From Bacillota bacterium (GTDB lineage Bacteria; Bacillota; Syntrophomonadia; Syntrophomonadales; Syntrophomonadaceae), in contig JAEWZB010000121.1 in assembly GCA_023395515.1 (NCBI GenBank), forward strand, positions 4,365 to 68,364: a stretch of 64,000 bases of DNA, given 5' to 3'. Shown piece by piece: positions 33,101 through 60,565 of this stretch. How positions within the stretch are numbered: the stretch's first letter is position 1; each line of letters starts with the position of its first letter. The position numbers and the translations under genes were made by a program. The notes under the pieces are model-generated. The model was not told the DNA's origin and did no database searches. It saw only the letters and a program-made list of their open reading frames with translations.

Positions 33101-34231
33101 ATGGGTGAGGATAATATGGATCCTGAATTAACTAGATATTTAAAAACTTTAACTAAACTGGCCATCTTGGTTATGGCGTTAGTGGCTATTTATTTGTTGT
33201 TTACTTATGTTTTTCCCATAGCCGGTAAAATGCTGTCATATTTACCGTCACTGCTGATGCCCTTTATAATTGCGGTTCTTTTGGCCATTATAATTGAACC
33301 GGTAGTAGTATTTTTTGAAACTAAAGCTAGATTAAAAAGAAGTTGGTCGGTTGCGCTTAGTTTAACCTTAGTAGTAGGTGGTTTTATATATTTAGTTTCA
33401 TTATTAATTGCTAAGATAATGCAAGAAATTTCCGGTATGACTCCTCAGTTAATAAAGTATTCTGATGGAGTAGTACAAAAGATAATAGCGGCAGTCAGTG
33501 ATTTTAGAGTGCTTTATTTGAAATTAAACTTACCGATTGAAGTGCAAAATGCTATCCAGGATAATTTGCAAAATTCCATAACGGTAATACGTCAATTCAT
33601 GGAAAGCAGTGTTAACTCTCTAGCCAAGTTATTAACCGTATTACCCGATATGTTTGTAGTTATTATGATTGCTACCGTAGCCACCTTTTTTATCATTAAA
33701 GACCGGGCGTTACTTAAAATTTTCTTTTTACAGCTTATACCGGGCAATGCCAGATCTAAAACTAGAGATGTTACCACTGAGCTTTTTAAATCCTTTATCG
33801 GTTTTCTGAAAGCCTATAGTATTTTAATTACCATAACTGCAATAGTTACTATGATTGGCCTTAAAATCCTGGGGGCTAAGTATATACTGACTATCGGTAT
33901 TGTAGTGGGCCTTTTGGATATTTTACCTATTTTGGGTCCGGGAACCTTTTTTATTCCGTGGATCATCTGGGAATTTATTTCCGGTAACACCGGCTTCGGA
34001 ATTAGTTTAGTAGTTTTATATGGAATCATCTCAGTAGTAAGGCAATTTTTAGAACCGAAAATAATTGGAGATAATATAGGCTTACACCCTTTGGCCACCT
34101 TGTTTTCTTTATATGTGGGGTTAAGGCTGGGAGGAATTGTGGGCATGATTTTAGGTCCCGTCTTAATTGTTATTATCATGGCCAGCTACCGGGTAGGTAT
34201 TTTTGATGGTATCAACTGGAGGAAGCGTTAA
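33101..34231 (+). CDS. ytvI: AI-2E/PerM family membrane protein, YtvI-like (sporulation integral membrane protein)
   Basis: 376 aa polytopic protein. The C-terminal conserved block is ILPILGPGTFFIPWIIW...PKIIGDNIGLHPLATLFSLYVGLRLGGIVGMILGPV. ATG 33116 (MDPELT...) behind GGTGAGGA is the more likely start. Confidence 0.7.
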   Translation: MGEDNMDPELTRYLKTLTKLAILVMALVAIYLLFTYVFPIAGKMLSYLPSLLMPFIIAVLLAIIIEPVVVFFETKARLKRSWSVALSLTLVVGGFIYLVSLLIAKIMQEISGMTPQLIKYSDGVVQKIIAAVSDFRVLYLKLNLPIEVQNAIQDNLQNSITVIRQFMESSVNSLAKLLTVLPDMFVVIMIATVATFFIIKDRALLKIFFLQLIPGNARSKTRDVTTELFKSFIGFLKAYSILITITAIVTMIGLKILGAKYILTIGIVVGLLDILPILGPGTFFIPWIIWEFISGNTGFGISLVVLYGIISVVRQFLEPKIIGDNIGLHPLATLFSLYVGLRLGGIVGMILGPVLIVIIMASYRVGIFDGINWRKR

Positions 34232-39215: not shown

Positions 39216-39881
39216 ATGTCAGTTTATGAAATAATATTTAAGTTAACATTAGCTTGTATTTTAGGTGGTCTGATTGGATTAGAAAGAGAAAGCTTAAATA
39301 GACCGGCTGGACTTAGAACCTACACCTTAGTTTGTGTAGGTTCGGCCTTAGCTATGGTAGTTTCTTTAGATATGTATTTCCAATATTATCAAACCGTTAA
39401 TGCTGATCCGGGGCGTATAGCAGCTCAGGTTATAAGTGGTATCGGATTTTTAGGAGCCGGAACCATTATGCGTGAAGGTGCCACAGTTAGGGGATTAACT
39501 ACCGCCGCCGGACTGTGGGTAGTAGCCTGCATAGGCTTAGCCGTGGGGGCTGGCCTCTATGTGCCGGCTATCGCCACAACTATAATTATTTTGTTTATTT
39601 TAATTTATTTTATAAGGTTTGAGCAAAAGTTTACCGGGATGCGGGAATATAAAGGGTTGGTGCTGGTAGTAGAAGATAAACCGGGGCAGGTTGGGACTAT
39701 AGGTTCCATTCTGGGTGATCTGGGAATTTCCATTAAAAATATTCAATTATCCCGCCTGGAAGGCGAAATTGATTTAGAAATAGAATTATTATTGCAATTG
39801 CCTACTAATATTTTAATTAGTCAAGTGATTGAAGAATTATCTCATGTAACCGGTTTAAGAAATATTGATAGACTGAACTAG
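39216..39881 (+). CDS. MgtC/SapB family membrane protein with a C-terminal ACT-like domain
   Basis: 221 aa with GLERE...PAGLRTYTLVCVGSAL...GIGFLGAGTI. Confidence 0.8.
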   Translation: MSVYEIIFKLTLACILGGLIGLERESLNRPAGLRTYTLVCVGSALAMVVSLDMYFQYYQTVNADPGRIAAQVISGIGFLGAGTIMREGATVRGLTTAAGLWVVACIGLAVGAGLYVPAIATTIIILFILIYFIRFEQKFTGMREYKGLVLVVEDKPGQVGTIGSILGDLGISIKNIQLSRLEGEIDLEIELLLQLPTNILISQVIEELSHVTGLRNIDRLN

Positions 39882-39910: not shown

Positions 39911-42900
39911 GTGAAAGATTTTTATGATTTTTTTTATGAGTTTACTGAGGAAAAATGTTGTGATAAATGGATAGATGCTAAAATAGTAAAGTTAGAAGTT
40001 TTTAATAATAGGTCATTATGGCGATTACACCTTATTACCCAATATCCCATTAATGTAAAAGAAATTAATCAGGTAAAAAGCCAATTATTAAAAAAGCTGA
40101 CCTTTTTAAATGAAATAGAATTTGTGCCTTTAATAGATAACCCTAAATTATTGAAGGAAATCATAGCTCAACATAAGGATGAATTATCATCCTCTTTCTT
40201 TTCTAGCCCGGAATTAAAAAATTCGGTAGAATGGCATATTGGTAATGCACGTATAGATTTAAAGACTAGTGATCAGCCGGCTTTTACCTTCCTGATGGAA
40301 AATGAAATTTGTATTAAGTTAGCAGATTGGTTATGGGACAATTATCTGCTAAGAGTAGTAGTTAGAGCTATAGAATCTAATCTGGGAGAAATAGAAAAAG
40401 AAGTAGAGCTATTTATTCCGCAAAAGGAATTGACCGTAATTGAAAATGCGGTTCCTGCTGCTGAAAACAGCTTTGTCAAGCGTAAGCCTATGCGCAGGGA
40501 ACGGCGCTCTAATTTAAAGAGTGACAGTGAAACTATAAAAATAGCGGAAGTAGTAGAAGGCTTAAAAACAGTTATCGTAGAGGGTGAAGTATGGCATAAG
40601 GAGAATACTCAGCTTAGAGACGGACGTTATGTTATCAGTTATTATTTAACTGATTATTCGGATTCTATCCTAATTAAAACTTTTATTGATAATCTGGAAG
40701 AGGACGAAATCAGAGTCGGGGATTGGATAAAGGTGCAAGGCAGCGTAAGATACGATAATTTTGCCCGGGAAATTGTACTTTATCTGGATGCCTATTTACA
40801 AGGGGAAAAAGCGGAGCGCTTAGATAATAGCCCCTTAAAACGAGTAGAATTACATTTACATACTAAAATGAGTGCTATGGATGGTTTAACTGAAATTGAT
40901 GAGGTAATAAAACGGGCAGCTAAGTGGAACCATCCGGCTATTGCCATTACCGACCACGGGTGTATTCAAGCTTTCCCTGATGCCTATCAAGCTGCCCAGA
41001 AATATAATATTAAAGTTATTTACGGGGTAGAAGCCTATTTAGTCAATGAGGACAAAAAGGAAAGACCCTATCATATTATTTTGTTAGCTAAAAACCGGGA
41101 AGGTTTAAAAAACTTATATAACCTGGTCAGTATTTCCTATCTGGATCATTATTACCGTTTCCCTAAAATACCCCGGCGGGTTTTAGCCGAATATAGACAA
41201 GGCCTATTGCTGGGCACGGCTTGTGAAGCGGGAGAACTCTATACCGCCATAGTAAATAAAGCTGCCCCGGAAGAAATAGAGAAAATTGCGGCTTTTTATG
41301 ATTATTTAGAAATTCAACCTTTACAAAATAATGAGTTTTTAATCAGGGAAGGTTTAGTAGAAAGTAAAAATGATTTAGAACAGATAAATAAAGACATAAT
41401 CGAGTGGGGAGAAAAGCTTAATATCCCAGTTGTAGCTACTGGTGATGTGCACTTTTTAGATCCTAATCATGAAATATACCGGCGTATCATTCAAGCGGGC
41501 CAGGGCTATGAGGATGTGGAGCATGAATTACCCCTTTATTTTAAAACTACCGAGGAAATGTTAAATGACTTCAGCTATCTGGGAGATGCTAATGCGCACA
41601 AGGTAGTAATCGAAAACCCACTTAATATTGCCAATCAAATTGAAAGTATTAAACCGGTGCCGGATGGCTTTTATCCTCCTAAAATTGACGGAGCTGAAGA
41701 GGAAATAACTAATTTAACCTGGAATGATGCTTGTGCCAAGTACGGGGGTAAGCTGCCGGAAATAGTAGAAGCCAGAATAAAACGGGAACTTGATTCGATT
41801 ACCAAACATGGCTTTAGTGTTTTATATCTTATTGCCCATAAGCTGGTTAAAAAGTCTAATGATGATGGCTATTTAGTAGGGTCCCGGGGTTCGGTAGGTT
41901 CTTCCTTGGTAGCCTATTTTACCGGTATTACTGAGGTAAATCCCTTACCCCCCCATTATAGATGTTTGCACTGTAAAAATTCGGAGTTTCCTCCCGAGGG
42001 GTCAGTAGGTTGTGGAGCAGATTTACCGGCTAAACTGTGCGATTGTGGTCACGAGTTTATAAAAGATGGATTTGATATTCCTTTTGAAACATTTTTAGGT
42101 TTTGAAGGGGATAAAGTACCCGATATTGATCTGAATTTCTCCGGCGAATACCAAAGTAAGGCTCATCAATACGTAGAAGAACTATTTGGCAGTGATAATG
42201 TATTTAGAGCCGGAACTATTTCTACTATTGCCGAAAAAACTGCTTTTGGTTTTGTGAAAAAGTATATGGAAAATAAAGGGGAAATAATAAAAAATTCCGA
42301 AACTAATAGATTAGTTAAAGGAATTACCGGAGTAAGAAGAACTACCGGGCAACATCCGGGTGGATTAATAGTAGTGCCCCGGGATAGAAATATTTACGAG
42401 TTTACGCCCTTGCAACATCCGGCGGAAAATAAGGATTCAGGAGTTATTACAACTCATTTTGAATATCATGCTATTGGTGATCAATTAGTTAAGTTGGACA
42501 TCTTAGGCCATGACGATCCCACCGTAATTAAAGAGCTGGAAGATTTAACCGGTATAGATGCGGCTACGATTAGTCTTAGCGAAAAGGAGACTATGAAACT
42601 TTTTTCTTCCGTTGACCCCCTGGGAATTAAATCAGCCGCTATTGACTCTAGTGTAGGTACTTTTGGTATTCCGGAATTTGGGACTAAATTTGTGCGGCAA
42701 ATGTTAGAAGCTACCCGGCCTACCACTTTCTCTGAATTAGTCCGTATCAGCGGTTTATCTCATGGTACCGATGTATGGCTGAATAATGCCCAAAACTTAA
42801 TATCCAATAATGTGGCTAAATTAAATGAAGTTATTTGTACCCGAGATGATATTATGACTTTTCTTATTTATAAAGGTATGGATAAGAAGCAAGCTTTCAA

Positions 42901-43543
42901 GATAATGGAAAAAGTAAGAAAAGGTAAAGGCCTAAATAGGGAAGATGAAGCCCTTATGAGGGAAAACCAAGTTCCTGAATGGTATATAGATTCTTGTAAC
43001 AAAATAAAATACATGTTTCCTAAAGCTCATGCGGTTGCTTATGTAACTATGGCCTATAGAATAGCCTTTTTTAAAGTTTATTATCCTTTAGCATTTTACG
43101 CCAGTTTCTTTAGTATTCGGGCGGAAGATTTTGAGGCGGAAACTATTTTAGCCGGTTACGATGCGGTTAATAACCGTATAAAAGCTATTGAAGCTTTAGG
43201 TTATCAGGCTAGCCAAAAGGACAAAAAATTAATACCGATTCTGGAATTAAGCTTGGAGATGTATGCCCGGGGCTTTCAGTTTTACCCGGTGGATATATTT
43301 AAATCTAGTGCCGATAAGTTTATGGCGAAAAATAATGGTTTAATACTGCCTTTTTCTGCTTTGCCTAATGTGGGCATAACCGCGGCCCGGGGTATTGCAG
43401 AAGCAGTCAAGCAAGGAGCTTTTGTTTCTGTGGAGGATTTTCAACAACGAACCCATTTAAATAAAACGGCCATGGATGTTTTGAGAAGATATCATTGTTT
43501 TAGTGGTTTACCTGAAAGTACCCAAATTAGTTTATTTGGTTAA
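39911..43543 (+). CDS. polC: DNA polymerase III PolC-type alpha subunit, apparently lacking the 3'-5' exonuclease insertion
   Basis: 1210 aa. PolC-specific features: N-terminal and OB domains; PHP motifs ELHLHTKMSAMDG, ITDHG, GVEAY and TGDVHF; Zn-finger HYRCLHCKNSEF...CDCGHEF; FETFLGFEGDKVPDIDLNFSGEYQ; and the palm/fingers core. GVEAYLVNEDKKERPYHIILLAKNREGLKNL joins the two PHP halves with ~9 residues, where canonical PolC carries the ~200-aa DEDD exonuclease. Confidence 0.9.
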   Translation: MKDFYDFFYEFTEEKCCDKWIDAKIVKLEVFNNRSLWRLHLITQYPINVKEINQVKSQLLKKLTFLNEIEFVPLIDNPKLLKEIIAQHKDELSSSFFSSPELKNSVEWHIGNARIDLKTSDQPAFTFLMENEICIKLADWLWDNYLLRVVVRAIESNLGEIEKEVELFIPQKELTVIENAVPAAENSFVKRKPMRRERRSNLKSDSETIKIAEVVEGLKTVIVEGEVWHKENTQLRDGRYVISYYLTDYSDSILIKTFIDNLEEDEIRVGDWIKVQGSVRYDNFAREIVLYLDAYLQGEKAERLDNSPLKRVELHLHTKMSAMDGLTEIDEVIKRAAKWNHPAIAITDHGCIQAFPDAYQAAQKYNIKVIYGVEAYLVNEDKKERPYHIILLAKNREGLKNLYNLVSISYLDHYYRFPKIPRRVLAEYRQGLLLGTACEAGELYTAIVNKAAPEEIEKIAAFYDYLEIQPLQNNEFLIREGLVESKNDLEQINKDIIEWGEKLNIPVVATGDVHFLDPNHEIYRRIIQAGQGYEDVEHELPLYFKTTEEMLNDFSYLGDANAHKVVIENPLNIANQIESIKPVPDGFYPPKIDGAEEEITNLTWNDACAKYGGKLPEIVEARIKRELDSITKHGFSVLYLIAHKLVKKSNDDGYLVGSRGSVGSSLVAYFTGITEVNPLPPHYRCLHCKNSEFPPEGSVGCGADLPAKLCDCGHEFIKDGFDIPFETFLGFEGDKVPDIDLNFSGEYQSKAHQYVEELFGSDNVFRAGTISTIAEKTAFGFVKKYMENKGEIIKNSETNRLVKGITGVRRTTGQHPGGLIVVPRDRNIYEFTPLQHPAENKDSGVITTHFEYHAIGDQLVKLDILGHDDPTVIKELEDLTGIDAATISLSEKETMKLFSSVDPLGIKSAAIDSSVGTFGIPEFGTKFVRQMLEATRPTTFSELVRISGLSHGTDVWLNNAQNLISNNVAKLNEVICTRDDIMTFLIYKGMDKKQAFKIMEKVRKGKGLNREDEALMRENQVPEWYIDSCNKIKYMFPKAHAVAYVTMAYRIAFFKVYYPLAFYASFFSIRAEDFEAETILAGYDAVNNRIKAIEALGYQASQKDKKLIPILELSLEMYARGFQFYPVDIFKSSADKFMAKNNGLILPFSALPNVGITAARGIAEAVKQGAFVSVEDFQQRTHLNKTAMDVLRRYHCFSGLPESTQISLFG

Positions 43544-43701: not shown

Positions 43702-44160
43702 ATGATGGCTGAAAATTATACAAAACGACTGGAAGAGTTATTAGAGGGGCAACTTAATACTATTAATGTAGAGCTGGTTAATGTAGAATACCGTATGGAG
43801 AATAAAGACCAGATGCTGCGTATTTTCATTGATCATAGTGAAGGCGTAGATTTGGGGCTTTGTACTGAGGTTACGAAGCTAGTTAAAAAGCTCATAGATG
43901 ATACTGATATTAATTATGACCATTTGGAAGTTTCTTCTCCCGGCTTGGATAGGATTATTAAAAGAAACAAGCATCCGGAAAGATTTATAGGACAACAAGT
44001 TAAAGTTAAAACCCTGAAATCTTTTCCTGGACCGCGGAAATTAGTAGGAATATTAACCCAGGTTAATGATGAAATGATAACAGTTGCAGATGATACTGAT
44101 AATTATGAAATATTTTGGGATGTAGTCACGACCTTAAGACTTCATTCAGATTTTAATTAG
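43702..44160 (+). CDS. rimP: ribosome maturation factor RimP
   Basis: 152 aa with LRIFID...LEVSSPGLDR. It lies before nusA. Confidence 0.9.
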   Translation: MMAENYTKRLEELLEGQLNTINVELVNVEYRMENKDQMLRIFIDHSEGVDLGLCTEVTKLVKKLIDDTDINYDHLEVSSPGLDRIIKRNKHPERFIGQQVKVKTLKSFPGPRKLVGILTQVNDEMITVADDTDNYEIFWDVVTTLRLHSDFN

Positions 44161-44171
44161 GAGGAGGTACA

Positions 44172-45233
44172 ATGGCAAACGATCTGATTCAGGCGCTAAT
44201 TGAAATAGAGAAAGAGCGGGGTATCCCCAAGCTGGCATTAATTGATGCAATTAAATCTGCTCTTAATACCGCCTATAAAAAGAATTTTGGCACTTCCCAA
44301 AATGTAAGTGTAGAATTTAATGATATTACAGGTGAAGTAAAAGTTTTTTCGCAAAAAACTATTGTGGAAACCGTGACCGATGGCAGAATAGAAATAAGTG
44401 CCGAGGAAGCTAAAGACTTATACCCTGATTGTCAAACCGGGGATTTAGTTTATGTAGAAGCTACTCCAGGTAATTTTGGGCGTATAGCAGCCCAAACTGC
44501 TAAACAAGTTGTTATTCAAAAACTTAGAGAAGCGGAAAGAAGCCTTATTTATGAAGAGTTTTTGGAACGGGAAGGTGAAATAGTTACTGGAACCATACAA
44601 AGACTGGAAAATAAAAATGTCTATATCAGCTTGGGAAGAACTGAAGGCATAATGCTTCCCGCCGATCAAGTGCAATCAGAAAATTATGAGATAGGGCAAA
44701 GATTAAAAGCTTATATACATGAGGTTAAAAATACTCCTAAGGGACCTAATATATATGTTTCCAGGTCTCATCCTTACTTTTTAAGGCGTTTATTCGAATT
44801 GGAAGTACCGGAAATATTTGATGGAGTAGTTGAAATTAAATCAATTGCCCGTGAAGCCGGGTTTAGATCTAAGATTGCTGTCCATTCCTTAGATGATAAA
44901 GTTGATTCAGTAGGAGCTTGTGTAGGACCTAAAGGATTCAGGGTGCAAAATATTGTTACCGAACTGGGCGGCGAGAAAATAGATATTATTAAATATGATA
45001 AAAGTGTGGAAAAATTCATTGCCAATGCTCTAAGCCCCTCCAAAGTTTTAGCTGTACATGTTAATGAAGAGGAGAAAATGGCCAGGGTTATTGTGCCGGA
45101 TTATCAACTTTCTTTAGCTATAGGTAAAGAAGGACAAAATGCCCGGCTAGCAGCTAAGCTTACCGGATGGAAGGTTGATATTAAAAGCGAAAGCCAGCTC
45201 GAAATTGTAGAAGATGGTGAAAGCGATGAATAA
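44172..45233 (+). CDS. nusA: transcription termination/antitermination factor NusA
   Basis: 353 aa with N-terminal, S1 and two KH domains ([36 protein letters not shown]). Confidence 0.95.
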
Positions 45234-45507
45234 ACCCAGAAAGCTTCCCCAGCGTATGTGTGTGGGATGCCGGGAAATGAAAAATAAAAAGGAACTGATT
45301 AGAATAGTTCGCAATGCCGAAGGTATCTTACATTTGGATACTACCGGGAAAAAACCGGGACGAGGAGCTTATCTATGTCCTAGTGTAGACTGTTTTAATC
45401 AATCTATTAAAGGAAAAAGAATCCAAAAAGCTCTGGAACAAGATTTGTCCGAGGAGCTTATTGAAAGCATTAAGCAGCAAATTGAGGCAGTAACAGCTAG
45501 TAAATAA
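45214..45507 (+). CDS. ylxR: YlxR/RnpM family RNA-binding protein (DUF448)
   Basis: 97 aa with [19 protein letters not shown] and GRGAYLC. Confidence 0.85.
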
Positions 45508-45508
45508 G

Positions 45509-45865
45509 GTGTGTGATAAGTTGAGAAAACTATATAGTATGTTAGGGTTTGCTCAAAAAGCAGGTAAGGTTTCCGCCGGTACTTTAGCGGCTAAATCAAG
45601 TTTAATAAGGCGTAAAGCTTATCTGCTCCTAATGAGTAATGATATAGCGGATAATTCTAAAGAAATGTTGATTAATATTTGCCAGAAAGTTAATATACCA
45701 TGGGTTATACTGGGGAATAAATATGATTTGGGTACTAGTGTAGGGAAGGCTTACCGGGTGGCGGTAACCATTAATGATAACAAAATGGCGGCAGCTCTTT
45801 TGGATGCTATTAACAGGACGGAAGAAAAAATAGAAACTATGGGGGTGGTTGAATGGCCAAAATAA
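45509..45865 (+). CDS. ylxQ: L7Ae/YlxQ family RNA-binding protein
   Basis: [13 protein letters not shown]... It lies between ylxR and infB. The start is probably an internal TTG or ATG (45521-45539). Confidence 0.8.
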
Positions 45866-48522
45866 GAGTACATGAATTAGCAAAAGAACTGGGAATACAA
45901 AGTAGAGAAATGGTGAATGTTTTGCATGGTTTAGGACTAGATGTCAAAAACCATATGAGTACTATGGAAGAATCACAGGTAAGTTGGGTTAAAAAGCAAC
46001 TTGCTAATTCTAAAATGGAAGAAAACAAAGTCCCTAAATCTGATAAACCCAAGCAACCGATTGACAATCGGCCTTCCGTAGATCAAGGAAGACAACCCCA
46101 CCATCGGGAAAGAAATCAGAATTTTTCCGATCCGTCCAAACCTCCTGTAGATAGAAATAACCGAGCTTCCAGCCCAGATAGAGCCGATAGGCCACAAAAT
46201 TCAGGTAATAGGCCACCACAAAGCCCGAACCGACCTGCTAATAGGCCCCAAAGTCCAGATAGACCTGGTGATAGGGCTCAAGGCCCGGATAGAAGGCCTC
46301 CAAGCCAGGATAGGCCTGGTAACAGGCCCCCAAGCTCAGATAGAACTGGTAACAGGCCGCCAAGCCCGGACCGACCCGGTAACAGGCCGCCAAGTTCAGA
46401 TAGAACTGGTAACAGGCCGCCCAGCCCAAATGATAATAGGGGCTCCAATAACCATAGGCCCACTAATGTTAATAGAAACCAAGATGCCGGCCGACCTAAT
46501 ACTAATAAGCCTGCTTCGGCAGGAATGAATAATCATAGGCCTAAAGATAGCAACTTCCGTCCTCCTAATGCAAGGACACCAGTTGCAAATTCAGCCGCGC
46601 CAACTAGTGATAAAGAAAATCTTAAGGCTTCAGATGTTACTAGAGGTGCCAAACCTAATAAACCTAATAATAAAACTAAAAAAACCCCGGACAAGAGTTT
46701 TCCTAAAAAAGACTATAGCCGTCAGGTAAGAAAACCGAAGCATAAACGCAAAAAAGAAGAAGTTATAGAAAAGACCCCCGATTTAATCGCTATTGAAGAT
46801 AGCATTACCGTAAGAGAATTTGCGGAAATGCTGGGTAAAAGCGCGGCCGAGATAGTGAAAAAATTAATGGAATTAGGTACTTTAGCTACCGTTAATCAAG
46901 ACATAGACTTTGAGACTGCCGAAATATTGGCTAGTTTGTATGAAGTCAAAGTAGAACGGGCCATATCGGAAGAAGAAAAACTCTTAGAAGAAATCATAGA
47001 TGATGATAAATCGATGGAACTAAGACCACCTATAGTTACAGTTATGGGTCATGTTGACCATGGTAAAACTTCCTTATTGGATAAAATCAGAAGTGCTGAT
47101 GTAGTCTCCGGTGAAGCGGGGGGAATTACCCAACATATAGGTGCTTATCAAGTAACGGTAAAAGGTAATAAGATAACCTTTATAGATACTCCCGGTCACG
47201 AAGCTTTTACGGCTATGAGAGCCAGGGGAGCCAACCTTACCGATATTGTAATATTAGTAATCGCTGCTGACGACGGGGTTATGCCTCAAACCGTAGAAGC
47301 GATTAACCATATTAAGGCAGCGGGAGTACCGTTTTTAGTAGCAGTTAATAAGGTGGATAAGCCCACTGCTAATCCGGACAAAGTTATGCAGCAATTGACT
47401 GAATATGGCATTGTACCGGAAGAATGGGGCGGAGATATTATTTTTGTTCCGGTTTCGGCTAAAACGGGAGATAATATAGATACTTTACTGGAAATGGTTC
47501 TATTAGTGGCAGAACTTAACGAAATTAAAGCTAATTCTAACCGGGCTGCAGAAGGAGTAGTTATTGAAGCGGAACTGGATAAAGGCCGCGGACCGGTGGC
47601 AACCGTCTTGGTATTAAAAGGAACCTTAAAAGTAGGCGACTTTTTAATCTGCGGTAGCAGCTTATGTAAAGTTAGAGCCATGAGTGATTATAGAGGCAGA
47701 AGAGTTGATAATGCTTTGCCTTCCATGCCCATAGAAATAATGGGCTGGTCAGATGTACCGGAAGCCGGAGGTAAAGTTCAAGCTTGTGATGAAAAAATAG
47801 CTAAGGAAGTATTGAGCTTAAGAGCCAGTGAAAGAAAGCTGGAAGAACAAAAGAGCAGCAGTAAAGTTTCTCTGGATGATTTCTTTAAACAAATGCAAGA
47901 TGCAGGAGTTAAAGAATTAAACTTAATCATAAAAGGTGATGTGCAAGGATCTATTGAAGCCTTAGCTCAATCTTTATTACGTTTATCCACTGATGAAGTT
48001 AAAGTAAATGTAATTCATTCGGCGGTAGGTGCTGTAACCGAAACCGATGTCATGCTGGCCACTGCTTCTAATGCAATAATCATTGGATTTAATGTAAGAC
48101 CAGATGTTAATGCCCGTAAAAGTGCGGAACAGGAAAATATTGATGTTCGTCTCTACCGGGTTATTTACGAAGCGATTGATGATGTTAAAAAAGCGATGGT
48201 TGGACTTCTAGATCCCGAATATAAGGAGAAATATATCGGCCGAGCCGAAGTTAGGGCTACCTTTAAAGTGCCCAATGCCGGCACTATAGCAGGCTCTTAT
48301 ATTATTGATGGAAAAATGCAAAGAAATGCCAATATTCGGGTTTTAAGAGATGGAGTTATCATTTACGAAGGTAACTTATCCTCCTTAAAGAGATTTAAAG
48401 ACGATGTTAAAGAAGTACAGGAAAATTATGAATGTGGTATAGGTATAAAGGATTTTAATGATCTTAAAGATGGAGATGTTATTGAAGCCTTTACCATGGA
48501 GGAAATTCCTAGAGAACTATAA
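45853..48522 (+). CDS. infB: translation initiation factor IF-2
   Basis: 889 aa with the IF2_N motif [11 protein letters not shown] and G-domain motifs [14 protein letters not shown] and NKVD. There is a long P/R/N/D-rich repeat region. Confidence 0.97.
46150..46435 (+). repeat. in-frame tandem repeat (30-nt unit, nested 60-nt unit) encoding DR(P/T)GNRPPS(S/P) decapeptides in the IF-2 linker
   Basis: 46321-46380 and 46381-46440 are near-identical over ~46 nt (aacaggccSccaagYtcagatagaactggtaacaggccgcc). The peptide reads [40 protein letters not shown], preceded by more degenerate units. Confidence 0.85.
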
Positions 48523-59818: not shown

Positions 59819-60565
59819 CTATAAAGCTTCTTGCAGCTTCGGGGTAAGGCTTTTTTTATGTTCATTAAGAAATTGGCGGACTTTGCGGACAGAAGTATTG
59901 AGTATTTGGCTTTGACGAATACCGGCACTTAAAGCCAGGCTGACTGCTTTTCTATTTTCCCCCGTATTGTAGCTGATATGGGCATCACTGTTAATACTGA
60001 CTAATATATGGTGCTTTTTAGCCATTTGAGCAAATTGGTTGCATAAGGTTTGGCTGCCGGGACGAACTATAAAAGAACTGTTATTCAACTCTATAGCCTT
60101 ATGGTAATGTTTAGCTGCCAGTACTACTTGTTCTACATCTACAGGATATTTGGGGTTGCCCGGATGAGTAATTAAATGGACATAGGGATTTTTAATGGCG
60201 GCAATCATAGCTTTAGTATTATCTTCCTGGCCTTGTCCGGTGTAGCCGGTTTCATCATGAAAACCTGCCAAAACTATATCTAGGAAATCAGACATGACCT
60301 GTTCCGGCATATCAACTTCACCTTGAAAGTTTAAAATATTAGCTTCTACTCCCCGTAGTAATTCCACACCTTCTATAACCCGGGGTAGGGATATCATGTT
60401 GGTAAAATGATATAGGTGCGGAGCGCCGGGCATGTTAAGTCCGTGGTCAGTAATAGCTACCATTTTAAGATCTTTTTGGGCTGCAACGGTCATAATCTCT
60501 TGAATAGTGCTGTAACCGTGGCCACTGGCAATAGTATGAACATGTAAATCCACTGGTATTTTCAA
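59819..60565 (-). CDS. PHP-domain phosphoesterase (YcdX-like)
   Basis: 248 aa with DLHVHT, ITDHG, and His/Asp metal ligands spread through the sequence (GFHD, THPG, NSDAH). Confidence 0.85.
   Translation of the reverse strand: MKIPVDLHVHTIASGHGYSTIQEIMTVAAQKDLKMVAITDHGLNMPGAPHLYHFTNMISLPRVIEGVELLRGVEANILNFQGEVDMPEQVMSDFLDIVLAGFHDETGYTGQGQEDNTKAMIAAIKNPYVHLITHPGNPKYPVDVEQVVLAAKHYHKAIELNNSSFIVRPGSQTLCNQFAQMAKKHHILVSINSDAHISYNTGENRKAVSLALSAGIRQSQILNTSVRKVRQFLNEHKKSLTPKLQEAL

What the first reader, a model, noticed from the sequence alone, without database searches (positions are those of the whole stretch)
41030..41075. PolC replicase without its proofreading exonuclease domain
The ORF is unmistakably PolC. 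It has the N-terminal and OB domains, the PolC Zn-finger HYRCLHCKNSEF...CDCGHEF, and [24 protein letters not shown]. However, it is 1210 aa, whereas canonical PolC is ~1400-1450 aa. In canonical PolC the DEDD 3'-5' exonuclease is inserted inside the PHP domain, between the GVEA motif and the (F/Y)H(V/I)xLLAxN motif. Here those motifs are joined by only LVNEDKKERP. I find no Exo I (D-x-E-T-T-G), Exo II (N-x-x-F-D) or Exo III (H-x-A-x-x-D) motif anywhere in the protein. All the usual PHP metal-ligand positions appear occupied (HLH, D, DH, E, H, C, DVH). Engineered Exo-deleted PolC is known to fold and polymerise; the Geobacillus kaustophilus PolC crystal construct (Evans et al. 2008 PNAS) is an example. 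A natural Exo-less PolC raises the question of where proofreading comes from. It could be a trans-acting DnaQ-like subunit or the PHP domain, as in M. tuberculosis DnaE1 (Rock et al. 2015 Nat Genet). I cannot tell from memory whether this lineage feature is already documented.
Basis: partly seen in the sequence, partly recalled or inferred. Interest (0 to 1): 0.65.

Follow-up and report, generated by a model that had tools for sequence, protein, structure and literature searches.

The report
Natural PolC lacking its exonuclease domain
The main DNA-copying enzyme (PolC) of this Syntrophomonadaceae bacterium really does lack the usual built-in proofreading domain, but this variant was already described in 2013 in many Clostridia, so it is a confirmed but known oddity whose proofreading mechanism is still untested.

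Summary
The ORF at 39911-43543(+) is a 1210-aa PolC. The PHP ligands E374 and H388 are joined by only 13 residues, where canonical PolC carries a ~212-aa DEDD exonuclease. Pfam, a purpose-built Exo-domain HMM, motif searches and an AF2 model all find no exonuclease.

It is not an artefact or a paralogue:
- All 120 nearest homologues share the same 12-13-residue junction. They include the PolC of the finished S. wolfei genome and of Thermosyntropha.
- The gene lies in the canonical ispG-proS-(mgtC)-polC-rimP-nusA-infB locus.
- The polymerase motifs, a Zn finger and the C-terminal clamp motif QISLF are present, and all nine PHP metal ligands (HHDHEHCDH) are invariant.

It is not new. Timinskas et al. 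(NAR 2014, PMC3919608) reported that 6% of PolCs lack the Exo insertion, that these occur in Clostridia and Negativicutes, and that those classes pair PolC with DnaE1.

My survey adds three points:
- 39 of the 80 nearest GTDB species are Exo-less, with several distinct junction types.
- The state changed at least 4 times on NJ trees.
- The PHP site is intact more often in Exo-less PolCs (29/32) than in Exo+ PolCs (66/107).

PHP-based proofreading is the most likely mechanism but is untested.

The parts
39911..43543 (+). polC, 1210-aa PolC-type DNA polymerase III alpha subunit without the DEDD exonuclease insert
   Evidence: ORF. NCBIfam NF001688 scores 1547 bits and TIGR01405 scores 1413 bits, both above their cutoffs. 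The best PDB match is G. kaustophilus PolC 3f2b at 1198 bits.
39974..40123 (+). PolC N-terminal domain I (residues 22-71), weak match
   Evidence: Pfam PF14480 DNA_pol3_a_NI, E=0.0014, below the gathering score. The same family is precomputed for many homologues.
40571..40774 (+). OB fold (residues 221-288), N-terminal to PHP as in PolC and unlike DnaE
   Evidence: Pfam PF01336, E=2.8e-5. The AF2 model shows a five-strand barrel at model residues 21-98. Foldseek also returns OB-fold proteins among its hits.
40847..41455 (+). PHP domain core (residues 313-515) carrying all nine metal ligands: H315 H317 D324 H349 E374 H388 C438 D512 H514
   Evidence: Pfam PF02811, E=6e-40. The ligands are invariant in 120/120 homologues and in all 78 GTDB-species PolCs in which the nine positions are present. 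AF2 mean pLDDT is 87.5.
41030..41074 (+). Junction E374-AYLVNEDKKERPY-H388, where canonical PolC carries a 211-214-aa DEDD exonuclease
   Evidence: Sequence. Query residues 380 and 381 map to chain residues 431 and 634 of the full-length PolC 9qpc. The junction is 12-13 residues in 120/120 homologues. Related Exo+ PolCs have 211-214 residues at this site. The AF2 model shows strand 168-178, a short loop, then strand 187-193, with block pLDDT 95 and 92.
41702..42277 (+). Pol III alpha palm/NTPase region (residues 598-789), including the catalytic-aspartate motif PDIDLNF (737-743)
   Evidence: Pfam PF07733, E=1.3e-61. Motif located.
41963..42046 (+). PolC Zn finger C685-x2-C688 ... C710-x-C712. 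The second pair has a one-residue spacer instead of two.
   Evidence: Sequence. It aligns to the Zn-finger segment of 3f2b with a one-residue gap. 82/120 homologues have C-x-x-C and 2/120 have C-x-C.
42515..42928 (+). Fingers domain (residues 869-1006). The LDILGHDD motif lies just upstream, at 862-869.
   Evidence: Pfam PF17657, E=1.7e-25. Motif located.
43274..43513 (+). Tandem helix-hairpin-helix DNA-binding module (residues 1122-1201)
   Evidence: Pfam PF14579 HHH_6, E=1.9e-9.
43523..43537 (+). C-terminal beta-clamp-binding motif QISLF (residues 1205-1209)
   Evidence: Regular-expression match. The Q, L and F of this motif are nearly invariant (at least 90%) in the 49-sequence alignment. 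It fits the QxxLF consensus described in PMC3919608 and PMC12926913.
36432..39881 (+). Upstream syntenic genes ispG, proS and mgtC-ACT
   Evidence: Pfam GcpE. MgtC+ACT by Pfam and NCBIfam. proS is assigned by eye from the translation and no family scan was run on it. [quoted passage not shown]
43702..48522 (+). Downstream syntenic genes rimP, nusA, ylxR, L7Ae-like and infB
   Evidence: Pfam hits. The same order is found in L001-L005 and in most Exo+ loci.

Best explanation
This is the genuine, functional, orthologous replicative PolC of a Syntrophomonadaceae bacterium.

What is shown or strongly inferred:
- The DEDD (DnaQ-like) exonuclease insert was removed cleanly at its domain boundaries before the sampled members of the family diverged.
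- What remains is a 13-residue hairpin loop between PHP strands beta3 and beta4, the DnaE-like topology.
- The polymerase still has its catalytic motifs, a Zn finger, its HhH module and its clamp-binding tail, so it should polymerise processively on the beta clamp.

What is inferred only:
- Proofreading is most likely done in cis by the PHP domain. Its nine-residue trinuclear-metal site is complete and invariant, and I infer it works like the Zn-dependent PHP 3'-5' exonuclease of M. tuberculosis DnaE1 and Thermus Pol III alpha.
- Clostridial PolC+DnaE1 replisomes normally carry three apparently active proofreaders: PolC-PHP, PolC-DnaQ and DnaE1-PHP. That redundancy would explain why the DEDD insert could be lost repeatedly.
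- The exonuclease activity of this PHP domain has not been measured.

The confidence of 0.6 is for the whole statement including PHP proofreading. For the anatomical part alone (a real, orthologous, lineage-wide Exo-less PolC) my confidence is about 0.97.
For: Architecture and absence of Exo.

Lineage-wide and old:
- 120/120 homologues, down to 60% identity, have a 12-13-residue junction.
- They include S. wolfei Goettingen (ABI68212.1, on a 2.94-Mb contig) and Thermosyntropha lipolytica.

Orthology:
- The locus follows the canonical fla/che ... rpsB-tsf-pyrH-frr-uppS-cdsA-dxr-rseP-ispG-proS-polC-rimP-nusA-infB order.
- The same order is shared by five Syntrophomonadaceae species, and most Exo+ loci share the ispG, rimP, nusA and infB neighbours.

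Clean deletion:
- The junction keeps the flanks seen in Exo+ relatives. The window reads xYLVNE...DKKERPYH, against GYLVDD-[Exo]-DIKKADTYH in L022.

Fold:
- AF2 model of residues 201-640 has mean pLDDT 87.5, with the junction modelled as a confident beta-hairpin.
- The best Foldseek hit is the engineered delta-Exo G. kaustophilus PolC 3f2b, with 441 aligned columns for a 440-residue query. The full-length PolC 9qpc needs 644 columns.

PHP site:
- HHDHEHCDH is found in all 120 homologues.
- G. kaustophilus PolC has N at ligand 8 (alignment) and is reported to lack PHP exonuclease activity (PMC5636811).
- Among 50%-identity cluster representatives, the PHP site is intact in 29/32 Exo-less against 66/107 Exo+ PolCs. 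Fisher's exact test gives p=0.002, not corrected for phylogeny.

Literature:
- Nine-ligand PHP domains of Mtb DnaE1, Taq and Tth Pol III alpha are reported to have exonuclease activity (PMC5636811).
- Clostridia usually have three 'active' proofreaders (PMC12926913).
Against: - No biochemical data exist for any natural Exo-less PolC in the searchable literature.
- The PHP motif is just as intact in the 40 closely related Exo+ clostridial PolCs. Its conservation is therefore not specific to Exo loss and could reflect a structural or other role.
- Only 64 kb of the genome could be examined, so a trans-acting DnaQ or a dominant DnaE1 cannot be excluded.
- The Fisher test ignores shared ancestry.
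Confidence: 0.6

Rival explanations
1. Proofreading comes in trans from a stand-alone DnaQ-like DEDDh exonuclease encoded elsewhere in the genome. It would bind PolC as epsilon binds E. coli alpha, and the PHP site would be structural only.
For: - Bacterial proteomes hold on average more than 3 stand-alone DnaQ homologues (PMC12926913).
- The PHP motif is equally conserved in Exo+ relatives, so its conservation does not prove it took over proofreading.
Against: - No DEDD-like ORF occurs in any frame of the 64-kb window, and no window ORF of 90 aa or more has an RNase_T domain.
- Among the flanks (up to 10 kb each side) of 39 Exo-less loci, only one (L068) has a DEDD-like gene, so there is no conserved linkage.
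- The 2026 survey assigned dedicated stand-alone DnaQ proofreaders mainly to DnaE1-only systems.
Confidence: 0.2
2. In these lineages DnaE1 is the main, self-proofreading replicase, with its own intact PHP site. PolC has a reduced or specialised role that tolerates having no dedicated proofreader.
For: Timinskas et al. raise exactly this possibility. They note three things:
- Clostridial DnaE1 has a typical clamp motif and a perfect PHP site.
- Some Clostridia have DnaE1 only.
- All Exo-less PolCs are clostridial.
Against: - The PolC is under strong purifying selection. Homologues are 60-79% identical, and the catalytic motifs, clamp motif and nine PHP ligands are all conserved.
- It keeps its conserved position among essential translation and transcription genes.
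- I could not confirm that dnaE1 is present in this genome.
Confidence: 0.15
3. The short gene is an artefact (assembly deletion or pseudogene), or a degenerate extra paralogue beside a canonical polC located elsewhere.
For: - Such paralogues exist. In L081/L082 an Exo-less, PHP-degenerate PolC lies directly downstream of a 1400-aa Exo+ PolC.
- Only 64 kb of this genome was available.
Against: - The reading frame is intact.
- The same junction occurs in 120 independent protein clusters, including a finished isolate genome.
- The gene is in the canonical locus.
- The window holds no second C-family polymerase.
- Timinskas et al. state that, apart from one Thermotogae case, Exo-less PolCs are not additional copies.
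Confidence: 0.02

Closest known systems
Natural Exo-less PolC variants of Clostridia and Negativicutes (Timinskas, Balvociute, Timinskas, Venclovas, NAR 2014; PMC3919608)
   Same: It has the same architecture: NTD-OB-PHP-Pol3-(HhH)2 with no Exo insertion in PHP. It belongs to the same taxonomic class (Clostridia). The PHP metal site is conserved.
   Different: Nothing essential differs. The paper's main text does not name Syntrophomonadaceae, and this organism is an uncultured member of the family. Its best GTDB-species match is 76% identical and its best protein match 79%. Pairing with DnaE1 could not be checked here.
Engineered G. kaustophilus PolC delta-N delta-Exo crystal construct (PDB 3F2B/3F2C/3F2D)
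   Same: It is a PolC that folds without the Exo domain. It is the best sequence match (1198 bits) and the best structural match.
   Different: - The construct replaces Exo with an artificial linker that includes GSGSG. The natural junction here is shorter and conserved.
- G. kaustophilus has N at PHP ligand 8 and is reported to lack PHP exonuclease activity. The window protein has all nine ligands.
- The window protein keeps its N-terminal domain.
M. tuberculosis DnaE1 and Thermus Pol III alpha PHP-exonuclease (Rock et al. 2015, from memory; Banos-Mateos et al. 2017, PMC5636811)
   Same: It is a C-family replicase with a complete nine-residue trinuclear-metal PHP site, no DEDD domain in the polypeptide, and a short beta3-beta4 loop instead of an insert.
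   Different: Those enzymes are DnaE1-type, with the OB fold C-terminal and no PolC NTD or Zn finger. Their exonuclease activity has been demonstrated, whereas here it is only inferred from ligand conservation.
Canonical PolC (full-length structure PDB 9QPC; B. subtilis PolC)
   Same: It shares 47-60% identity outside the insert, the same domain order, the Zn finger, the clamp motif and the genomic locus.
   Different: Canonical PolC carries a ~200-aa DEDDh exonuclease between PHP ligands 5 and 6. In PolC+DnaE3 organisms the PHP site is often degenerate.

Membership tests
PolC-type DNA polymerase III alpha subunit | Scores above the curated cutoff of the PolC equivalog HMMs | tested here: met
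   NF001688 scores 1547 bits (cutoff 873). TIGR01405 scores 1413 bits (cutoff 1043).
PolC-type DNA polymerase III alpha subunit | PolC domain order: NTD, OB fold N-terminal to PHP, Pol3 core, (HhH)2, C-terminal clamp motif | tested here: met
   Pfam positions are NI 22-71, OB 221-288, PHP 313-469, Pol3 598-789, fingers 869-1006 and HHH_6 1122-1201. QISLF lies at 1205-1209.
PolC-type DNA polymerase III alpha subunit | DEDD 3'-5' exonuclease inserted in the PHP domain (the classical hallmark) | tested here: not met
   - No PF00929 hit.
- 13 residues occupy the site where relatives have 211-214.
- The Exo HMM gives no hit.
- No Exo I, II or III motifs.

The literature accepts such proteins as PolC variants.
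PolC-type DNA polymerase III alpha subunit | Polymerase catalytic motifs and the PolC Zn finger | tested here: met
   PDIDLNF at 737 and LGHDD at 865 are present. The four Zn-finger cysteines C685, C688, C710 and C712 are present, with an unusual C-x-C second pair.
PolC-type DNA polymerase III alpha subunit | Orthologous genomic position between ispG/proS and rimP-nusA-infB | tested here: met
Exo-less PolC variant (Timinskas et al. 2014) | PolC lacking the Exo insertion, found in Clostridia or Negativicutes | tested here: met
   The insert is absent (see above). The nearest named relatives are Syntrophomonadaceae, which are placed in class Clostridia (taxonomy line).
Exo-less PolC variant (Timinskas et al. 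2014) | Sole PolC of the genome, paired with a DnaE1 that has an intact PHP site | not testable with these tools
   Only 64 kb was available. The window holds no second C-family polymerase.
PHP-type proofreading exonuclease (Mtb DnaE1 / Thermus Pol III alpha type) | Nine metal-ligand residues HHDHEH[C/H]DH | tested here: met
   H315 H317 D324 H349 E374 H388 C438 D512 H514 are present and invariant in 120/120 homologues. The motif definition comes from PMC12926913.
PHP-type proofreading exonuclease (Mtb DnaE1 / Thermus Pol III alpha type) | Intact PHP barrel fold | tested here: met
   AF2 mean pLDDT is 87.5. Foldseek matches the PHP-containing parts of PolC and DnaE structures. This rests on a predicted structure, not a solved one.
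PHP-type proofreading exonuclease (Mtb DnaE1 / Thermus Pol III alpha type) | Metal-dependent 3'-5' exonuclease activity on mismatched primer ends | not testable with these tools
   This needs biochemistry. I found no published assay on a natural Exo-less PolC.
DnaQ/epsilon-like DEDDh exonuclease (RNase_T, PF00929) | Exo I (DxE), Exo II (NxxxFD) and Exo III (HxAxxD) motifs, or an HMM match, anywhere in the protein or window | tested here: not met
   for the protein. for the other window ORFs.

The most novel reading that the evidence does not exclude
The PHP domain of natural Exo-less PolCs is the sole cis-proofreader of a PolC-type replicase. On this reading, clostridial PolCs ancestrally carried two redundant proofreaders, and that redundancy allowed the DEDD insert to be lost at least four times independently. 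Syntrophomonadaceae would be one old, family-wide loss. If true, this would give the first PolC-type PHP exonuclease and a natural system for asking why two proofreaders coexist in most Clostridia.
Probability: 0.5. Interest if true: 0.45.

Novelty: already known. Interest (0 to 1): 0.2.

Why it matters
Exo-less PolCs show that a PolC replisome can do without the DEDD proofreader that defines the textbook enzyme. They offer a natural test of whether PolC's PHP domain is an active exonuclease, which has been open since 2013. They also matter in practice: PolC is an antibiotic target, and annotation pipelines label these proteins simply as 'PolC-type DNA polymerase III'. For this window, however, the result is a confirmation of a documented variant in one more uncultured Syntrophomonadaceae genome. 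It is not a discovery.

Tried and rejected
Hypotheses rejected:
- **Assembly deletion or pseudogene.** Rejected because the frame is intact and 120/120 homologues share the junction.
- **Cryptic or relocated Exo domain.** I built an HMM from 40 Exo domains and searched six-frame translations of the window and of all 80 loci. Nothing appeared in the window. Only one Exo-less locus (L068) has a DEDD-like neighbour.
- **Second C-family polymerase nearby.** phmmer of PolC against all six-frame ORFs found none in the window or in the flanks of L001-L005.

Attempts that led nowhere:
- **Identifying the source contig.** An exact look-up of P0001 with the look-up of encoding contigs found no record. 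The cluster look-up gave no name for it. The GTDB scan showed that the genome itself is not a species representative.
- **Per-genome polymerase and DnaQ tables.** The supplements of both NAR papers held only a genome list for S. wolfei.
- **DnaE1 and stand-alone DnaQ in the same genome.** I could not do this.
- **Rfam and tRNA scans of the window.** Nothing was found.
- **Literature on experimental work.** Searches for work on natural Exo-less PolC returned nothing.

Caveats on the survey:
- The NJ trees are crude. The midpoint-rooted Fitch reconstruction gave an Exo-less root, which I regard as a sampling artefact. I used only the unrooted change count, which was 4-6 in 50/50 bootstrap trees.
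Full report
**1. The observation**

- The window holds a single long ORF at 39911-43543 on the + strand. It has a GTG start and encodes 1210 aa.
- It is a PolC by the curated equivalog models: NF001688 scores 1547 bits against a cutoff of 873, and TIGR01405 scores 1413 against 1043.
- Pfam finds the PolC N-terminal domain I (weak), an OB fold at 221-288, PHP at 313-469, the Pol III alpha palm region, the fingers and the HHH_6 module. It finds no RNase_T/PF00929.
- The finding's coordinates 41030-41075 are the codons from E374 to H388, reading GVE-AYLVNEDKKERPY-HIILLAKN.
- Against the full-length PolC of PDB 9qpc, query residue 380 aligns to chain residue 431 and residue 381 to chain residue 634. 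About 200 residues are missing at exactly this point.
- Against the engineered Exo-deleted G. kaustophilus PolC (3f2b), the alignment runs straight through the junction. There the artificial linker, which includes GSGSG, sits opposite the natural DKKERP.
- No Exo I, II or III motif occurs in the protein.
- An HMM built from 40 Exo domains of related PolCs finds nothing in any of the six frames of the 64-kb window. The best hit has E=3 and lies inside cheA.

**2. Not an artefact, not a paralogue**

- The 120 best homologues in a 5.8-billion-protein collection are 1143-1238 aa long, lack PF00929, and are named Syntrophomonadaceae, Syntrophomonas wolfei or Thermosyntropha lipolytica wherever a name exists.
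- In all 120 the stretch between PHP ligands E and H is 12-13 residues, with the consensus E[AG]YL[VI]xE[DN]KK[EQ][RK]PYH.
- One member is ABI68212.1, on a 2.94-Mb contig of the S. wolfei Goettingen isolate genome.
- The gene sits in the classical Firmicutes arrangement. A fla/che operon and a sigma factor are followed by rpsB-tsf-pyrH-frr-uppS-cdsA-(AI-2E)-dxr-rseP-ispG-proS-(mgtC)-polC-rimP-nusA-ylxR-L7Ae-infB-rbfA-nrnA-truB-ribF-pnp. proS was assigned from its translation only.
- The five Syntrophomonadaceae species in GTDB share ispG-proS-mgtC-polC-rimP-nusA-infB. Most related Exo+ PolCs lie between ispG and (rimP)-nusA-infB as well.
- The window holds no second C-family polymerase.
- No ORF of 90 aa or more has a DnaQ-like domain.

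**3. What is retained**

- The polymerase motifs PDIDLNF (737) and LGHDD (865) are present.
- The four Zn-finger cysteines are present, although the second pair is an unusual C-x-C.
- The C-terminal clamp-binding motif QISLF is present.
- All nine PHP metal ligands are present: H315 H317 D324 H349 E374 H388 C438 D512 H514. This is the HHDHEH[C/H]DH signature used in the literature to call a PHP exonuclease 'active'. The ligands are invariant in 120/120 homologues.
- An AF2 model of residues 201-640 has mean pLDDT 87.5. It puts the junction in a tight hairpin between two confident strands, at model residues 168-178 and 187-193.
- Its best structural match is the delta-Exo G. kaustophilus PolC, aligned essentially one-to-one with 441 columns. 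Full-length PolC needs about 200 extra columns.
- The G. kaustophilus enzyme has N at ligand 8 and is reported to have no PHP exonuclease activity. Nine-ligand PHP domains of Mtb DnaE1, Taq and Tth Pol III alpha are reported to have it (PMC5636811).
- That paper also notes that the PolC Exo domain is inserted in the loop that lines the PHP exonuclease groove. Here that loop is DnaE-like in length.

**4. Breadth and history**

- A scan of one genome per GTDB species returned 80 loci.
- 39 of them are Exo-less, with junctions of 10-27 residues that fall into several distinct sequence types. Full Exo inserts of 211-214 residues were read in 40 loci. L046, cut off by its contig end, keeps part of an Exo domain and makes 41 Exo+.
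- All 78 loci in which the nine PHP positions are present have the full 9/9 motif.
- The Exo-less loci carry names such as Ruminiclostridium, Oscillospiraceae, Thermoanaerobacteraceae, Anaerovoracaceae, Peptostreptococcaceae and Lentihominibacter.
- The window protein is about equally distant, roughly 60%, from Exo+ and from other Exo-less PolCs over residues 390-1205.
- On 50 bootstrap NJ trees the minimum number of Exo gains or losses is 4-6.
- Because the Exo+ inserts share the same site and similar flanking residues, repeated loss is the natural reading. The trees are crude and lack outgroups.
- Among the 150 best 50%-identity cluster representatives, 32 are Exo-less. The PHP motif is intact in 29/32 Exo-less against 66/107 Exo+. 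Fisher's exact test gives p=0.002, uncorrected for phylogeny.

**5. Mechanism**

*Shown.* This is an intact, conserved, orthologous PolC without a DEDD domain and with a complete PHP metal site.

*Inferred.* The PHP domain provides 3'-5' proofreading in cis, as in Mtb DnaE1. The DEDD insert was dispensable because clostridial PolC+DnaE1 systems usually carry three apparently active proofreaders (PMC12926913).

*Rivals.*
- A trans-acting DnaQ-like protein encoded elsewhere. There is no evidence for one within 64 kb, and no conserved linkage in other Exo-less loci.
- DnaE1 is the main replicase, as Timinskas et al. speculated.
- An artefact or extra paralogue, which is essentially excluded.

I found no experiment on any natural Exo-less PolC in the searchable literature.

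**6. Comparison with what is known**

- Timinskas et al. [quoted passage not shown]
- They reported that these occur exclusively in Clostridia and Negativicutes, apart from one extra copy in Thermotogae.
- They also reported that these classes pair PolC with DnaE1, and that PolC PHP sites are conserved.
- The 2007 survey had still found the Exo domain in 100% of polC genes.
- The 2026 survey included S. wolfei and Syntrophothermus lipocalidus in its genome set.

The variant is therefore already known, and the window adds one more uncultured Syntrophomonadaceae example.

**7. Verdict**

Interest is low (0.2). The only open and testable point is whether the PHP domain of these PolCs really proofreads.

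Noticed in passing
L081 5702-9904 and 10001-13537; L082 at the same coordinates: Tandem polC paralogues occur in ENA metagenome contigs of up to 134 kb. A 1400-aa PolC with an RNase_T domain is followed directly by a 1178-aa PolC (P0236/P0286). The second copy lacks the Exo insert and has a degenerate PHP site, with H-R-S-L-E-N-S-D-Q at the nine ligand positions. It therefore has no recognisable cis-proofreader. The organism is unknown.
   Followed up: partly
window 59819-60565 (-): A stand-alone 248-aa PHP-domain protein matches NCBIfam NF006702/PRK09248 at 312 bits (cutoff 264). Its next-best similarity is to the PHP 3'-5' exonuclease part of PolX. It lies 16 kb downstream of polC. I did not test any link to replication.
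   Followed up: partly
window 42038-42046 (residues C710-D711-C712): The second cysteine pair of the PolC Zn finger is C-x-C here. 82 of the 120 homologues have C-x-x-C and only 2 of 120 have the one-residue spacer. It looks like a one-codon deletion within a metal-binding motif.
   Followed up: partly
window 39216-39881 (+): An MgtC-ACT gene is inserted between proS and polC. It is conserved at this position in all five Syntrophomonadaceae GTDB species (L001-L005). MgtC homologues were detected in only 5 of 41 Exo+ loci.
   Followed up: partly
L046 1-2721: A truncated PolC from an uncultured Eubacteriales MAG keeps part of an Exo domain (Exo HMM E=2.4e-27). On the NJ tree it clusters next to Exo-less PolCs (L011, L026). 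This is one reason the count of independent changes is 4-6.
   Followed up: partly
window 1-28000 (+): This stretch holds a complete B. subtilis-like fla/che operon: fliG, fliH, fliI, fliJ, fliK, flgD, flgE, fliL, fliM, fliN/Y, cheY, fliO, fliP, fliQ, fliR, flhB, flhA, flhF, a MinD-like gene, a PilZ gene, cheB, cheA, cheW, cheC, cheD, a sigma factor and FapA. It lies directly upstream of rpsB-tsf, so gene order is colinear with Bacillus over more than 50 kb.
   Followed up: partly
window 33101-34231 (+): An AI-2E family transporter gene is inserted between cdsA and dxr in the otherwise conserved uppS-cdsA-dxr-rseP block.
   Followed up: no
window 1-64000: The whole 64 kb has no Rfam match at gathering score and no tRNA gene. 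That includes the leaders upstream of rpsB, infB and pnp.
   Followed up: no
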